20,000 nucleotides of DNA, taken from positions 2,076,248 through 2,096,247 of the forward strand of contig NC_057719.1 in the NCBI RefSeq assembly GCF_004010195.1, written 5' to 3'. Under the pieces are notes generated by a model. That model saw nothing but the letters and a program-made list of their open reading frames with translations, had not been told where the DNA came from and made no database searches. This stretch comes from Chiloscyllium plagiosum. Its lineage: Eukaryota. Positions 417 through 19,079 of this stretch are shown here, one piece after another; positions within the stretch are counted from its first letter, which is position 1; each line of letters begins with the position of its first letter. Made by a program: the position numbers and the translations under genes.

Positions 417-626
417 AGTCAAAGGGGCTGGTGCTGGAAAAGCACAGCAGGTCAGGCAGCATCCGTGAAGCAGGAGAGTTGATGTTTCGGGCATAAGCCC
501 TTCATCAGAGCTTATGCCTGAAACGTCAGTTCTCCTGCTCCTTGGATGCCGTCTGACCGGCTGTGCTTTTCCAGCACCACTATTTTCAACACTGACCTTC
601 AGCATCTGCAGTCCTGACTTTCTCCT
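417..626. mobile_element. Penelope-like element pseudo-LTR remnant, inverted (hairpin) arrangement
   Basis: Left arm ~429-500 (tggtgctggaaaagcacagc...cgggcataagccc) is the reverse complement of right arm ~509-579, followed by tail cagcatctgcagtcctgactttctcct. Same family as 14249-14446, 14844-15196 and 18725-18849. PLE assignment is from recalled architecture plus the hammerhead motif. Confidence 0.8.
481..508 (-). ncRNA. Minimal hammerhead ribozyme motif (decayed)
   Basis: Minus strand reads CTGATGA-A-GGGC-TTAT-GCCC-GAAAC-ATC. Core and stem II are intact, but the ACGT palindrome seen in sister copies is ACAT here. Confidence 0.6.
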
Positions 627-956
627 ATGGTTGTGTTTCTATTTGTGTATGGGAGAAAGAGAGGCAGAGACTGCACACCCGCCTTCAAGTTGGGGTGGGG
701 AGATCAGTTTATGAACATCCTGGTTTCTGATCGTGTAAATCTCTGACCAACTTTGAAGAAAGGGTGCTGACAGACATTTCTAAGTTGAGTTGGTGGTGTG
801 TGTGTATTGCTAGTATTGGGATGAGATGACTACGGTGTAAGTAACAAAAAGAACAGTGGAATCTCATGAACTCAACTAGAGATCTGGATTAGTGACCAAT
901 CCTTTCATCAGGAAATGAGAAATCAAACAAATATGCACGTTGGCTGGGAGTTCCTG

Positions 957-7488: not shown

Positions 7489-8253
7489 GTAGACAGGCAG
7501 GGGGCTGGGAGAACACAGCAAGGCAGGCAGCATCAGGAGGGACAGGCAACAGGCTGGAGGAATACAGCAAGCCAGGCAGCATCAGGAAGGACAGGCAGGA
7601 GTCTGGGGGAACACAGCAAGGCAGGCAGCATCAGGAGGGACAGGCAGGGGGCTGGGGGAACACAGCAAGCCAGGCAGCATCAGGAGGGACAGGCAGGGGC
7701 CGGGGGAACACAGCAAGCCAGGCAGCATCAGGAGGGACAGGCAGGAGGCTGGGGGAACACAGCAAGGCAGGCAGCATCAGGAGGGACAGGCAGGAGGCTG
7801 GGGGAACACAGCAAGGCAGGCAGCAGCAGGAGGGACAGGCAGGGGGCTGGGGGAACACAGCAAGCCAGGCAGCATCAGGAGGGACAGGCAGGGGCCGGGG
7901 GAACACAGCAAGCCAGGCAGCATCAGGAGGGACAGGCAGGAGGCTGGAGGAACACAGCAAGCCAGGCAGCATCAGGAGGGACAGGCAGGGGGCCGGGAGA
8001 ACACAGCAAGCCAGGCAGCATCAGGAGGTGGAGAAGTCCATGTTTTGGGAGTAACCCATCTTCAGAAAAATTCCTAAAGAAGGTTACACCCAAAACATTG
8101 ATTTCCCTATCTCCTGTTGCTGCCTGGCTTGCTGTGTTCCCCCAGCCTCCTGCCTGTCCCTCCTGATGCTGCCTGGCTTGCTGTGCTCTTCCAGCCTCCT
8201 GCCTGTCTACTTTGGATTCCAGTATCTTACAGTTTCTTTTGTCTCTAACCAAG
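7489..8253. mobile_element. PLE-derived inverted-repeat insertion with internally amplified arms
   Basis: Outer inverted ends gtagacaggcag (7489) and ctgcctgtctac (8210), followed by tail tttggattccagtatcttacag. Flanked by attgtatctgctt (7475-7487) and attgaatctgctt (8254-8266), a 12/13 TSD. The host LINE resumes collinearly. Confidence 0.85.
7492..8028 (+). repeat. 48-49 bp minisatellite, 11 copies
   Basis: Unit gacaggcagg(a/g)ggctgggggaacacagcaag(c/g)caggcagcatcaggagg starts at 7492, 7541, 7590, 7639, 7688, 7736, 7785, 7834, 7883, 7931 and 7980. Two inverted copies lie at ~8111-8207. Confidence 0.97.
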
Positions 8254-14185: not shown

Positions 14186-14755
14186 AGTCACAGAGATGTA
14201 CAGCACAGAAACAGACCCTTCGGTCCAACTCTGCATACTGACCAGATACTGGATCAGTGGTGCTGGAAGAGCACAGCAATTCAGGCAGCATCCGACGAGC
14301 AGCAAAATCGACGTTTCGGGCAAAAGCCCTGGCTTTTGCCCGAAACGTTGATTTTGCTGCTCGTCGGATGCTGCCTGAATTGCTGTGCTCTTCCAGCACC
14401 ACTGATCCAGAATCTGGTTTCCAGCATCTGCAGTCATTGTTTTTACCATACTGACCAGATATTCTAACCTAATCTAGTCCCATTTGCCAGTATTTGGCCC
14501 ATATACCTCCAAACCCTTCCAATTCGTGTAACCATCCAGGTGCCTTTTAAATGATATAATTGTACCAGCCTCCACCACTTCCTCTGGCAGCTCATTCCAC
14601 ACACGTACCACCCTCTGTGTGGAAAAAGTTGCCCCTTAGGTCCCTTTTATATCTTTCCCCTCTCACCCTAAACCTATGCCCTCTAATTTTAGACTCCCCC
14701 CAACTCAGGGAAAACACATTGGCTATTACCCTATCCATGCCCCTCATGATGTGAT
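14186..14755 (-). mobile_element. CR1 (HER1-like) 3' end, interrupted at 14249-14446
   Basis: Minus ORF RGHRFRVRGERYKRDLRGNFF is identical to the peptide at 18290-18350; tail gagtcacagagatgtacagcacagaaacagaccc. Confidence 0.92.
14249..14446. mobile_element. Young PLE-derived palindromic insertion, 80-bp arms, 15-bp TSD
   Basis: 14249-14328 vs 14331-14410 match 79/80 as reverse complements with a 2-nt spacer. TSD catactgaccagata at 14234-14248 and 14447-14461. Confidence 0.92.
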
Positions 14756-14845
14756 AAACATTTCCATAGCTCACTTTACAATCCTTCTAGCTAATGAAGT
14801 ACTTTGGAAATATAAAAATCACTGTCTTATAGGAGGCACAGCACC

Positions 14846-14881
14846 ATTCCTGATGAAAGGCTTTTGCCTGAAACGTCGATT
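14846..14881 (+). ncRNA. Minimal type I hammerhead ribozyme motif
   Basis: attc-CTGATGA-A-AGGC-TTTT-GCCT-GAAAC-GTC-gatt: intact core, perfect 4-bp stem II, palindromic ACGT in place of stem III, short stem I. Predicted cleavage after C14877. Confidence 0.75.
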
Positions 14882-15105
14882 CTCCTGCTCTTCGGATGCT
14901 GCTTTTCCAGCATCACAGTCTCAACTCTAATCTCCAGCATCTGCAGTCCTCACTTTCTCCTAGTTGACTTTAACCTTCCTGCGAATCCTCTTGCAAGGAT
15001 GCCTACCTTGAAGAAGTTCTCCTCCCCTCTCTACAAAGATCTCAGTGAGTCTCTCTCTCACTGCACCCCCCAGGTCATCTCCTCTGCCCTGAAGCTCTTC
15101 TCCAC

Positions 15106-15139
15106 GTCCTGATGAAGGGCTTTTGCCTGAAACGTCGAT
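15106..15139 (+). ncRNA. Minimal type I hammerhead ribozyme motif
   Basis: gtc-CTGATGA-A-GGGC-TTTT-GCCT-GAAAC-GTC-gat: intact core, stem II with a basal G-U pair. Predicted cleavage after C15136. Confidence 0.72.
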
Positions 15140-15639
15140 TCCCCTGCTCCTCAGATGCTGCCTGACATGCTGTGCTTTTCCAGCACCACACTCAACAGGA
15201 GCCACAGCAGCGAATTCATACACAGCAAGCTCCCAGTAATAATATAATGGTCAGAAAGCCTTTTTCTTTCTAAAAATGTGTTTGTTAAAGCAAAGGTATT
15301 TCTCAGGCATCTGAAGATACCTTCCCTACCATGAAGTTATGCTGCAGGAGTTTGACCATGTTTAACATTGCAACTCAGTACTGCCCCAGGAGAGTCTGTA
15401 AATGCGTGGAGAGTGAATCACCAGATCTCTGACTGAATGTGTCACTCTCTGAACAATTGCCCTCTCAATCTTGCGAGGGGGTGTTAGTGCCATGGAGTGG
15501 AATTTTTAAATTCTGGGTAACAGGGTGGTCAGCTGGTATTGCCTGCTCAGATATAACCTGGTACGAGCAGAATAAAGCTTTCCCTGATCCTGTCCTTCTC
15601 CATATCTCCCACCCTTTGACCTTGGCAGAGATTGTCAGT

Positions 15640-17306: not shown

Positions 17307-18580
17307 AACGTGGTGCCACTGTTTAAGAAGGGCGGTAAGGACAAGCCAGGGAACTAGAGACCAGTGAGCTTGACCTCGGTGGTGGGCAAGTTGTTGGAGG
17401 GAATTCTGAGGGACAGAATGTACATGTATTTGGAAAGGCAAGGACTGATTAGGGATAGTTAACATGGCTTTGTGTGTGGGAAATCATGTCTCACAAACTT
17501 GATTGAGTTTTTTGATGAAGTAACAAAGAAGATTGATGAGGGCAGAGCAGTAGATGTGATCTATATGGACTTCAGTAAGGCGTTCGACAAGGTTCCCCAT
17601 GGGAGACTGNNNNNNNNNNNNNNNNNNNNNNNNNNNNNNNNNNNNNNNNNNNNNNNNNNNNNNNNNNNNNNNNNNNNNNNNNNNNNNNNNNNNNNNNNNN
17701 NNNNNNNNNNNNNNNNNNNNNNNNNNNNNNNNNNNNNNNNNNNNNNNNNNNNNNNNNNNNNNNNNNNNNNNNNNNNNNNNNNNNNNNNNNNNNNNNNNNN
17801 NNNNNNNNNNNNNNNNNNNNNNNNNNNNNNNNNNNNNNNNNNNNNNNNNNNNNNNNNNNNNNNNNNNNNNNNNNNNNNNNNNNNNNNNNNNNNNNNNNNN
17901 NNNNNNNNNNNNNNNNNNNNNNNNNNNNNNNNNNNNNNNNNNNNNNNNNNNNNNNNNNNNNNNNNNNNNNNNNNNNNNNNNNNNNNNNNNNNNNNNNNNN
18001 NNNNNNNNNNNNNNNNNNNNNNNNNNNNNNNNNNNNNNNNNNNNNNNNNNNNNNNNNNNNNNNNNNNNNNNNNNNNNNNNNNNNNNNNNNNNNNNNNNNN
18101 NNNNNNNNNNNNNNNNNNNNNNNNNNNNNNNNNNNTGAGCTATAGGGAGAAGCTGAACAGGCTGGGGCTGTTTTCCCTGGAGCGTTGGATGCTGAGGGGT
18201 GACCTTATAGAGGTTTACAAAATTATGAGAGGCCTGGACAGGGTAAATAGTCAAAATCTTTTCCCTGGGGTCGGGGAGTCCAGGACTAGAGGGCATAGGT
18301 TTAGGGTGAGAGGGGAAAGATATAAAAGAGACCTAAGGGGCAACTTTTTCACACAGAGGGTGGTACGTGTATGGAATGAGCTGCTAGAGGAAGTGGTGGA
18401 GACTGGTACAATTGCAACATTTAAGAGGCATTTGGATGGGTATATGAATAGGAAGAGTTTGGAGGGGTATGGGCCGGGTGCTGGCAGGTGGGACTAATTG
18501 GGTTGGGATATCTGGTCGGCATTGACGGGTTGGACTGAAGGTCTGTTTCCATGCTGTACATCTCTCTGACTCCATGACTC
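17307..18580 (+). mobile_element. Young 5'-truncated CR1 (HER1-like) LINE, RT pseudogene spanning the assembly gap
   Basis: [64 protein letters not shown] with in-frame stops at 17355 and 17460. After the gap the frame reads SYREKLNRLGLFSLE..FFTQRVVRVWNEL, then the tail tgactccatgactc. Confidence 0.95.
17610..18135. other. Assembly gap (526 N)
   Basis: Run of N. Confidence 1.
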
Positions 18581-18595
18581 TCAGCCATTGTTGTA

Positions 18596-19079
18596 TCATA
18601 GAATCCCTACAGTGTGGAAACAGGCCCTTCAGCCCAACAAGTCCATGCTGATCCTCCAAAGAGTAACCCACCCAATCCCATTCCCCTACCCTATTGTTCT
18701 ACATTTACCCCTGACTAATCCACCCAGATGAAAATGTGTACTGCAGGTGCTGGAGATTAGAGTCAAGAGTGTGGTGCTGGAAAAGCACAGCAGATCAGGC
18801 AGCATCCGAGGAGCAGGAGAATTGATGTTTCAGGCAAAAATTGATTTTCCTAATCCACCTAATCTACACATCCCTGAACGCCATGATCAATTTTGCATGG
18901 CCAATCCACCTAACTTGCACATCTTTGGACTGTTGGAGGAAACTAGAGCACTCAAAGGAAACCCACGCTGACACAGGGAGAATGTGTAAACTCCACACAG
19001 TCACCCAAGGCTGGAATCAAACCCGGGACCCAGGTGCTGAGAGGCAGCAGAGCTAACCACTGAGCCACTGTGCTGCCCC
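18596..19079 (-). mobile_element. Full-length HE1-like V-SINE interrupted at 18725-18849
   Basis: Minus-strand head ggggcagcacagtggctcagtggttagctctgctgcctctcagc..gggtttgattcc (A/B boxes), V-domain-like body and LINE-type tail. Confidence 0.92.
18725..18849 (-). mobile_element. PLE pseudo-LTR fragment nested in a SINE, 10-bp TSD
   Basis: gtggtgctggaaaagcacagcagatcaggcagcatccgaggagcagg; ctaatccacc duplicated at 18715-18724 and 18850-18859. Confidence 0.85.

What the first reader, a model, noticed from the sequence alone, without database searches (positions are those of the whole stretch)
14844..15196. 353-bp TSD-flanked mini-element with two tandem intact hammerhead cores (retrozyme-like, possible double hammerhead)
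Seen: two same-strand CTGATGA-A-stemII-GAAACGTC motifs with predicted cleavage sites at 14877 and 15136 (259 nt apart), inside direct repeats, bounded by a 12/13 TSD in an old SINE. Known: Penelope-like elements carry minimal hammerheads whose palindromic stem III lets them cleave as dimers, and retrozymes yield small linear or circular RNAs between tandem hammerheads. Inference: the two ACGU palindromes could pair in cis and excise a ~259-nt RNA, or cut a host pre-mRNA if the + strand is transcribed. Stem I is only 2-4 bp, so activity is uncertain.
Basis: partly seen in the sequence, partly recalled or inferred. Interest (0 to 1): 0.7.

Follow-up and report, generated by a model that had tools for sequence, protein, structure and literature searches.

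The report
Gutted shark Penelope-like element copy
This 353-base insertion is a gutted, decayed piece of a very abundant repeat, likely a shark Penelope-type jumping gene: its ribozyme-bearing end, the start of its gene and the same end again, likely joined when the copying enzyme jumped templates at a shared 6-base word, and predicted not to fold into a working double ribozyme, so it is mostly ordinary.

Summary
In detail: two same-strand minimal hammerhead cores (predicted cuts after 14877 and 15136) lie inside a 12/13 target-site duplication. The element consists of the terminal repeat of a very abundant family, then the first 36 codons of that family's ORF, a 6-nt microhomology (TCCTGA) and the terminal repeat again. 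Public contigs and two shark proteins show the ORF normally continues past the junction. The motif matches the published minimal hammerheads of Penelope-like elements (PLEs); RT and GIY-YIG domains of the parent could not be shown. The junction creates a predicted 9-bp helix that sequesters core 2 (stem II probability 0.001-0.02), and copy 1 starts with native, not junction, sequence, which argues against a circle-derived retrozyme. Most likely an old template-switch by-product of PLE reverse transcription; a small non-autonomous subfamily or a later deletion remain open. The scan has noted similar gutted PLE copies with other spacings on other DNA (unchecked notes). Low interest.

The parts
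14831..14843 (.). Left target-site duplication (13 bp)
   Evidence: 12/13 match to 15197-15209; 11 of 40,000 random pairs as good
14844..14961 (+). First copy of the family's terminal repeat (pLTR-like). Starts with native upstream letters CAT, has a private 14-nt deletion at 14899/14900 between TGC repeats, and runs to the family's distal preferred 3' end (14961-14963)
   Evidence: Alignment with six other window copies; loose ends behind 14961-14963 in 106-564 contigs per row; family loose ends before the core end in CCTCAT/CTTCAT
14850..14877 (+). Minimal hammerhead core 1: CUGAUGA, extra A, 4-bp stem II closed by A10.1-U11.1, GAAA, ACGU palindrome, predicted cut after C14877
   Evidence: stem II pair probability 0.93-1.0
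14962..15112 (+). Leader and first codons of the parent element's ORF (ATG 14999; 36 codons to 15106; ends in a stop at 15110 created by the junction)
   Evidence: 86% and 77% identity to residues 1-35 of P0002 and P0003, named records of Hemiscyllium ocellatum and Chiloscyllium punctatum; codon positions; family contigs run on unlike after 15100
15092..15122 (+). Predicted 9-bp helix (15092-15100 with 15114-15122) that takes G8/A9 and the 5' strand of stem II of core 2
   Evidence: Pair probability 0.978-0.999 in six folding windows; present in MFE structures
15107..15112 (+). 6-nt microhomology TCCTGA shared by the ORF (Val37-Leu38-Lys39 of the parent frame) and the hammerhead 5' end: the junction
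   Evidence: Loose-end consensus behind 15100 carries TCCTGA then AACAG/AGCAG in X3 and X1; loose ends before 15107 end in CCTCAT/CTTCAT in 4 of 4 runs
15107..15196 (+). Second copy of the terminal repeat, ending in the AC-rich stretch at the family's proximal preferred 3' end (about 15193)
   Evidence: loose ends behind 15193 in 97-465 contigs per run in 4 of 4 runs
15109..15136 (+). Minimal hammerhead core 2: stem II closed by G10.1.U11.1, predicted cut after C15136
   Evidence: stem II probability 0.000-0.019
15197..15209 (.). Right target-site duplication
   Evidence: the element-to-flank junction 15165-15400 is held at single-copy-like depth (17.9, 22.3) in two runs of organism C

Best explanation
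This is an old, non-coding fragment of a very abundant repeat family, likely a Penelope-like retrotransposon, that was likely made in one insertion event in which reverse transcription jumped templates at a 6-nt microhomology, and it is predicted to be catalytically and transpositionally inactive. Shown: the anatomy (TSD, terminal repeat, 36 ORF codons, TCCTGA, terminal repeat, TSD), the normal continuation of the ORF past TCCTGA, the two preferred family 3' ends, and the rarity of the junction. Inferred steps: (1) the parent's endonuclease nicked the target and cDNA synthesis began internally at the AC-rich site about 57-60 nt downstream of the uncut hammerhead (right end), as shown in vitro for the Anolis Poseidon element; (2) it copied about 90 nt through the core to near the place where most family copies begin, likely the RNA 5' end; (3) the cDNA end re-annealed to the second TCCTGA in the ORF of the same or another RNA, possibly helped by pairing between the hammerhead's GAAGGGCUU and the ORF's AAGCUCUUC next to that site; (4) it copied about 270 nt back to the same 5' end and was sealed with a 13-bp duplication. 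Decay followed. The hammerheads are passengers: the ordinary motif of the terminal repeat, present twice because the repeat was copied twice.
For: Both halves begin within 3-4 nt of each other just upstream of the core. Family loose ends there agree poorly (0.35-0.47, against 0.58-0.92 for loose ends that continue into family sequence), as expected if many copies begin there. The ORF continuation in contigs reads S-H-V-L-K-Q-T-x-Y-H, matching P0002/P0003. The right end sits at a preferred family end, 41 nt before the second preferred end, like the 30-40 bp PLE tail between two RT start sites (PMC11167929, parts 1-2 of 4 read). In that paper hammerhead cleavage is not needed for insertion and needs the PLE protein. 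Copy 1 is preceded by CATTC, a 5-letter match to the native context, against 3 of 6 to the junction context. In X3 the summed depth is about 7.7 million over the core, 195,000 over the ORF part, 1,147 at 15101 and 89 for the junction contig, against 22 for the unique flank. The double-hammerhead fold costs 20.8 kcal/mol over the MFE, cis stem III probability is 1e-5, and the 259-nt circle folds no better than shuffles (z -1.0). In X21, 443 laid RNA reads show both orientations, flat depth across 15136, no end pile-up and no junction joint. Microhomology-deleted PLE derivatives with TSDs are described (PMC3846280, passages).
Against: The junction is not cleanly single-copy. One contig crosses it at depth 89.2 in X3 and 32.3 in X13 (4.0x and 1.8x the flank contig) and appears to end at a branch near 15122/15123. 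It has only 10 letters past the microhomology, so it fails the tool's 31-letter bridging rule. Two further joints 15100>15107 (X3 depth 30.6; X1 depth 41.3, shorter side 33) have unknown letters between. Summed depth is not a copy number (tool warning). A post-insertion deletion gives the same final structure. The native-versus-junction call for copy 1 rests on about 3 informative letters. RT and GIY-YIG domains of the parent were not found. The folding penalty has no positive control, and nearest-neighbour models penalise real hammerhead cores too. A-U and G.U at 10.1-11.1 occur in 3 and 8 of 56 published representatives (my count of Fig. S3 text), so they do not by themselves show loss of activity. 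The RNA test is weak: polyA single-cell reads, about 2% of one run, a 93-nt target, and an organism not shown to hold this locus.
Confidence: 0.55

Rival explanations
1. A small non-autonomous mini-PLE lineage: a master copy bearing this junction was re-copied a few times in trans by the parent's protein, and this insertion is one daughter.
For: Junction contig at 1.8-4x single-copy depth in two runs of organism C, apparently sharing T at 15101 with the window (no 15101 variant row, where a 7.8% variant should be listed); possible junction joints in organisms A and C. The element keeps the repeat plus the ORF 5' region, which for the Anolis element is the protein-binding part (PMC11167929). 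Non-autonomous PLE derivatives are known (PMC8557442 passages; bioRxiv 10.64898/2026.07.22.740005).
Against: Depth at 15101 caps the junction at roughly 50 flank-equivalents in X3, and the identified junction contigs sum to about 5. The second repeat lacks the downstream sequence that the Anolis template needs. Extra copies could be segmental duplicates or independent jumps to the same TCCTGA. No second flank was seen.
Confidence: 0.2
2. A full-length repeat-ORF-repeat unit inserted here and later lost its middle (several kb) by microhomology-mediated end joining between the two TCCTGA words.
For: The structure is exactly a full unit minus its interior. Such deletions are reported for PLEs (PMC3846280, passages). 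Copy 1 carries a second microhomology-type deletion (14 nt between TGC repeats).
Against: It does not explain why the right breakpoint falls where many family copies begin, although the microhomology alone could place it there. Several copies of the junction would need an extra step.
Confidence: 0.2
3. An active retrozyme: the two ACGU palindromes pair in cis, both sites cleave, and a 259-nt linear or circular RNA is released and re-inserted.
For: All conserved core letters and both GUC sites are intact, although 11-13% of family depth in X3 has lost the CpG or C at 15133-15136. The spacing lies in the 150-450 nt retrozyme range (PMC7229834, passages). Dimeric and trimeric minimal hammerheads cleave weakly in vitro (PMC4209133). 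A PLE protein can switch on its hammerhead (PMC11167929).
Against: Core 2 is predicted to be sequestered; stem I is 2-3 bp; copy 1 has native upstream letters, which a more-than-unit copy of the circle would not; it is not a TRF tandem array; there is no junction joint or end pile-up in 443 RNA reads (weak test); 8 of 9 Xenopus dimers tested did not cleave (bioRxiv 10.64898/2026.07.22.740005).
Confidence: 0.05

Closest known systems
Minimal hammerheads (min-HHR) in pLTRs of metazoan PLEs (Cervera and De la Pena 2014, PMC4209133)
   Same: CUGANGA plus one extra base, GAAA, loopless palindromic A-C-G-U helix III, NUH = GUC, short helix I. The Acropora (Neptune) and Nematostella(2) rows of Fig. 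S3 have the same 4-bp stem / 4-nt loop / CGUC layout.
   Different: No shark row was found in the one supplementary file searched (the other file could not be searched). Here 10.1-11.1 is A-U and G.U rather than the majority G-C, and the two motifs are 259 nt rather than about 2-3.4 kb apart.
Endonuclease-bearing PLE insertions: partial tandems, inverted pLTRs, 30-40 bp tail, internal RT initiation, microhomology-deleted derivatives (PMC11167929, PMC8557442, PMC3846280)
   Same: Terminal repeat with hammerhead upstream of an ORF start; two preferred 3' ends 41 nt apart; inverted pairs of the same repeat elsewhere in the window (429-627, 14241-14435); TSD; internal loss at a microhomology.
   Different: The ORF ATG lies about 150 nt after the core here, whereas in the Anolis element it lies at stem II. 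RT/GIY-YIG of the parent were not demonstrated, and the clade was not determined.
Animal non-LTR retrozymes (Cervera and de la Pena 2020, PMC7229834; Li et al. 2026, bioRxiv 10.64898/2026.07.22.740005)
   Same: Two type I motifs a few hundred nt apart, non-coding, long TSD, PLE-derived. Li et al. report such families in one chondrichthyan (mean consensus 363 bp).
   Different: Not a head-to-tail array of one unit; minimal rather than canonical motif; the unit includes parent ORF sequence; at most a handful of copies; no RNA product seen; GC 50.6%.

Membership tests
PLE minimal hammerhead | Core CUGANGA+N ... GAAA ... NUH with helix II | tested here: met
   Both copies; 0 hits in 300 shuffles
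PLE minimal hammerhead | Palindromic 15.1-16.1 segment without loop III | tested here: met
   ACGU in both
PLE minimal hammerhead | Conserved G10.1-C11.1 pair | tested here: not met
   A-U and G.U. G-C is in 43 of 56 published representatives, G.U 8, A-U 3, U-A 2 (my count). About half of the family depth has C at 15128.
PLE minimal hammerhead | Self-cleavage as dimer or with protein help | not testable with these tools
   Folding predicts core 2 sequestered; needs a bench assay
Endonuclease-bearing PLE (parent family) | Hammerhead-bearing terminal repeat followed by an ORF start | tested here: met
Endonuclease-bearing PLE (parent family) | Telomerase-like RT plus GIY-YIG endonuclease in the ORF | tested here: inconclusive
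   P0002/P0003 carry no such Pfam family; longer homologues not found; Atlas and PDB gave nothing usable. A shifted frame of both proteins is compatible with a K/R-G-L-x-F-x-P motif that I recall from PLE ORFs (recalled, no call).
Endonuclease-bearing PLE (parent family) | Two preferred 3' ends giving a 30-40 bp tail | tested here: met
   Loose-end clusters at 15193 (equivalent to 14920) and 14961-14963, 41 nt apart
Endonuclease-bearing PLE (parent family) | Inverted / partial-tandem insertions and TSDs | tested here: met
   Inverted pairs at 429-627 and 14241-14435; TSD here; 'opposite strands' joints at the core in 4 of 4 runs
Animal non-LTR retrozyme | Head-to-tail tandem of a unit with a complete HHR in each (TRF-detectable, Li et al. 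criterion) | tested here: not met
   TRF lists 9 rows, none here (parameters differ from the paper's); copy 1 has native, not junction, upstream letters
Animal non-LTR retrozyme | Canonical type I HHR with 6-bp helix I and loop contacts (Cervera 2020 definition) | tested here: not met
   Helix I of 2-3 contiguous pairs
Animal non-LTR retrozyme | Unit of 150-450 nt | tested here: met
   259 nt
Animal non-LTR retrozyme | Multicopy family sharing the unit junction | tested here: inconclusive
   About 2-4 flank-equivalents for one non-bridging contig, two uncertain joints; no assembly available
Animal non-LTR retrozyme | Abundant linear and circular monomer RNA | tested here: inconclusive
   No junction joint or end pile-up in 443 polyA reads of X21; the library is unsuited to non-polyadenylated circles

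The most novel reading that the evidence does not exclude
The helix between the hammerhead's GAAGGGCUU and the ORF's AAGCUCUUC is a built-in long-range switch of the parent PLE RNA. It keeps the ribozyme off until the PLE protein refolds it, and it parks the RNA 5' end beside an identical TCCTGA word, so that reverse transcriptase repeatedly jumps there and founds a low-copy lineage of mini-elements with this same junction in several shark species: a structure-guided route from PLE to retrozyme-like element. Support is thin: 19 of 1,000 shuffles pair as well in the last 25 nt before the junction, but 122 of 1,000 do so anywhere in the 145-nt middle, and the test was post hoc.
Probability: 0.12. 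Interest if true: 0.5.

Novelty: new member of a known kind. Interest (0 to 1): 0.17.

Why it matters
As it stands it matters little: it is one more decayed derivative of a class whose minimal hammerheads, tails, partial tandems and microhomology deletions are published. Its modest value is as a clean fossil of PLE copying, with both ends and the junction readable, in a lineage for which my searches found no paper on PLE hammerheads. If the junction proved recurrent and guided by an RNA helix that also silences the ribozyme, it would give a testable mechanism for how retrozyme-like mini-elements arise from PLEs and why PLE hammerheads need protein help.

Tried and rejected
No whole genome is held for this window, so the junction's copy number could not be counted in an assembly. 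Rfam found no hammerhead family. DNA pattern scans found 0 matches in metagenome contigs, viral contigs and prokaryote genome contigs, as expected for a vertebrate repeat. Protein searches for the parent's RT: P0001 against longer proteins, none of 8 candidates; P0003 1-165 near, only itself and P0002 of 84 candidates; longer, none of 130; Pfam no relevant family; ESM Atlas returned HEAT/TOG-type helical clusters, treated as generic helical look-alikes; PDB one match at E 0.55. P0004, the third hit (36% identity, repetitive), was dropped as chance. Pfam on 26 of the 41 long window ORFs gave 0 families, so no host exon or transcribed strand was identified. Run search: no RNA holder listed. X1 and X2 show no cover of the right flank 15248-15400; a hole proves nothing. 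No empty-site joint is among the 15 joints shown of 443. Two papers opened for the effect of 10.1-11.1 changes (PMC544870, PMC11300833; passages) gave no rate data, so I do not claim those changes inactivate the motif. The idea that the shared C>T at 11.1 marks a special source copy was rejected: about half of family depth carries T there. Sequence and place look-ups of earlier scan notes returned nothing. Supplements of the bioRxiv preprint (which name its chondrichthyan species and families) are closed and may bear on novelty; the GenBank supplement of PMC11167929 and file 1 of PMC4209133 could not be read.

Full report
Observation. The sequence shows two CTGATGA-A-stem II-GAAACGTC motifs on the + strand at 14850-14877 and 15109-15136. 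Numbered as hammerheads they have G12-A14, A15.1-C-G-U16.1 and C17, so the predicted cuts are after 14877 and 15136, 259 nt apart. A strict descriptor finds these two and one minus-strand copy at 508, and 0 hits in 300 dinucleotide shuffles. A 13-bp direct repeat with one mismatch flanks 14844-15196; 11 of 40,000 random position pairs match as well. Rfam has no model that scores the motif. Pair 10.1-11.1 is A-U in copy 1 and G.U in copy 2, and stem I has 2 and 3 contiguous pairs.

The repeat is common. The same terminal repeat occurs five more times in the window: as inverted pairs at 429-627 and 14241-14435 and singly at 18730-18839. In public contig sets of three coded organisms the summed depth over it is in the millions, while the unique right flank has depth 18-22 in the two runs that cover it. 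The tool warns that summed depth is not a copy number, so I use it for orders of magnitude only. In X3 it is about 7.7 million over the core and 195,000 over the middle segment, roughly 350,000 and 9,000 times the flank.

The middle is the start of an ORF. 14999-15106 encodes 36 codons that match residues 1-35 of two proteins at 86% and 77% (2 of the 3 hits; the third was dropped as chance). These are named records of Hemiscyllium ocellatum and Chiloscyllium punctatum, so the window is likely from a related shark (inference). Long family contigs stop matching at 15100. Their loose-end consensus continues through TCCTGA into ORF sequence that reads S-H-V-L-K-Q-T-x-Y-H, as in P0002/P0003. On the other side, family copies have CCTCAT or CTTCAT before 15107 in 4 of 4 runs. 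The junction is therefore a 6-nt microhomology, TCCTGA (15107-15112), between ORF codons 37-39 and the 5' edge of the hammerhead.

Is the parent a PLE? The motif has the layout of published PLE minimal hammerheads (PMC4209133: parts 1-2 of 4 of the text and parts 1-2 of 3 of supplementary file 2 read). The family has two preferred 3' ends, at 15193 (equivalent to 14920) and 14961-14963, 41 nt apart. This fits the 30-40 bp tail that lies between two internal RT start sites of the Anolis Poseidon element (PMC11167929, parts 1-2 of 4 read). Inverted pairs, partial tandems and TSDs are PLE traits (PMC8557442, PMC3846280; passages). I could not show RT or GIY-YIG domains. A shifted frame of both proteins is compatible with a K/R-G-L-x-F-x-P motif that I recall from PLE ORFs; that is a lead only. 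Membership of the parent is likely, not proven.

How many copies share the junction? Depth at 15101 is 1,147 (X3), 557 (X1), 661 (X2) and 377 (X13), which includes alignments that spill over by a base. One contig crosses the junction: 71 nt, laid on 15060-15122, depth 89.2 in X3; the same inserted G shows at depth 32.3 in X13. That is 4.0 and 1.8 times the flank contig. It has only 10 letters past the microhomology and so fails the tool's 31-letter bridging rule, though ten further matching letters are unlikely by chance. Two joints 15100>15107 (X3 depth 30.6; X1 depth 41.3) have unknown letters between. None is listed for X2 or for the RNA run. The junction is thus rare, about three orders of magnitude below the ORF part, but probably not strictly unique. 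Orthologue plus duplicates, independent jumps, or a tiny subfamily would all fit.

Age. The two repeats differ at 6 of 73 aligned positions plus a 14-nt deletion, the TSD at 1 of 13, and organism C holds the right junction and flank with 5 other letters and 1 gap in about 235 nt. The insertion is old and decaying (inference).

Could it cleave? Copy 1's stem II forms (probability 0.93-1.0), but copy 2's does not (0.000-0.019 in six windows) because 15092-15100 pairs with 15114-15122 at probability 0.98-1.0. No majority variant is listed in either arm, so the helix appears intrinsic to the junction. Forcing the double hammerhead costs 20.8 kcal/mol and cis stem III has probability 1e-5; this has no positive control. 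The 259-nt circle folds like its shuffles (z -1.0), as does the whole element (z -0.63). Against over-reading: A-U and G.U at 10.1-11.1 occur in 3 and 8 of 56 published representatives (my count; G-C 43, U-A 2), and all conserved core letters are intact. Published dimers of minimal hammerheads cleave only weakly (PMC4209133), 8 of 9 Xenopus dimers did not cleave (bioRxiv 10.64898/2026.07.22.740005, parts 1-3 of 5 read), and the Anolis hammerhead needs protein and is dispensable for insertion in vitro. In X21, 443 reads laid from about 2% of a polyA single-cell run cover the family core in both orientations (depth 173 and 254), with no drop at 15136, no end pile-up and no junction joint. This is a weak test for cleavage products.

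Mechanism. A more-than-unit copy of a 259-nt circle would have junction letters before both cores. Copy 1 instead begins with CATTC, matching the native context over 5 letters against 3 of 6 for the junction; only about 3 letters are informative. Both halves begin within 3-4 nt of each other, where family loose ends lose agreement (0.35-0.47). The simplest reading is one priming event at the AC-rich internal site, copying through the uncut core to the RNA's 5' end, re-annealing at the ORF's TCCTGA and copying to the 5' end again. Reading that point as the RNA start came from earlier scan notes and was only partly checked here. Deletion after insertion of a full unit gives the same product and cannot be excluded without orthologous sites. 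The best pairing site for core 2 among 20-nt windows of 14878-15106 is the one next to the junction (-15.4 kcal/mol, next best -11.8). 19 of 1,000 shuffles reach the observed energy in the last 25 nt, but 122 of 1,000 do anywhere in the middle, so a guiding role is a possibility only.

Comparison and novelty. It works like a dead partial-tandem or internally deleted PLE insertion. It fails the retrozyme tests for tandem organisation and canonical motif (PMC7229834, passages) and is inconclusive for copy number and RNA. Searches for shark + Penelope + hammerhead ribozyme (1 review listed), Penelope + Chiloscyllium + transposable (2 unrelated listings), shark + genome + Penelope + repeat + Hemiscyllium (0) and Penelope-like + template switching + hammerhead + truncated copies (4 listings, none on this) found no description of this family; those papers were seen as listings only. 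Li et al. report retrozyme families in one chondrichthyan, and their closed supplements may include relatives. Earlier scan notes list several gutted copies with other spacings in the same genome; these are unchecked AI notes and not support. No host exon was identified, and the SINE target (a resemblance to a Deu-domain SINE is recalled, no call) was not verified.

Verdict. A real feature; a new member of a known kind; interest 0.17. The three PLE-derivative readings together carry about 0.95, an active retrozyme about 0.05.

Noticed in passing
window 429-627: Head-to-head inverted pair of the same terminal repeat centred in the hammerhead core. The minus-strand arm keeps a descriptor-matching core at 508 with G-C closing stem II but AUC at the cut triplet.
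   Followed up: partly
window 14241-14435: Near-perfect (97%) 178-bp palindrome of the terminal repeat folded back at stem II, flanked by an apparent direct repeat (CATACTGACCAGATA at about 14234 and 14448) inside another repeat.
   Followed up: partly
window 7492-8028 and 8111-8207: 49-bp minisatellite (11 copies) plus an inverted 2-copy block whose unit resembles the downstream part of the same terminal repeat; possibly a satellite born from a related PLE end.
   Followed up: no
window 18730-18839: Solo minus-strand copy of the terminal repeat truncated inside stem II.
   Followed up: partly
runs X1, X3, X13 laid on window 14650-15400: Joints 14960/14961 > 15107 in 6-10 contigs per row suggest other loci where the repeat's distal end is followed by a new core, i.e. 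short tandem terminal repeats that may be closer to true retrozymes; letters between are unknown.
   Followed up: no
window 14942-14961 and 15162-15184: Both preferred family 3' ends lie at or near pyrimidine tracts ending in AG that look like 3' splice sites; PLEs are known to carry introns, but this was not tested.
   Followed up: no
run X21 laid on window 15132: 88 of 254 reads of one orientation carry C instead of A at the last base of GAAA, suggesting one well-expressed family copy with an altered core.
   Followed up: no
window 17463-18497: ORF fragments around an assembly gap of N that resemble a CR1-type LINE reverse transcriptase and its 3' end (resemblance recalled; the one fragment scanned had no Pfam hit).
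   Followed up: no
P0002, P0003: Annotated as 'mucin-2-like' and 'uncharacterized protein', but they appear to be mis-framed reads of this element's ORF.
   Followed up: partly
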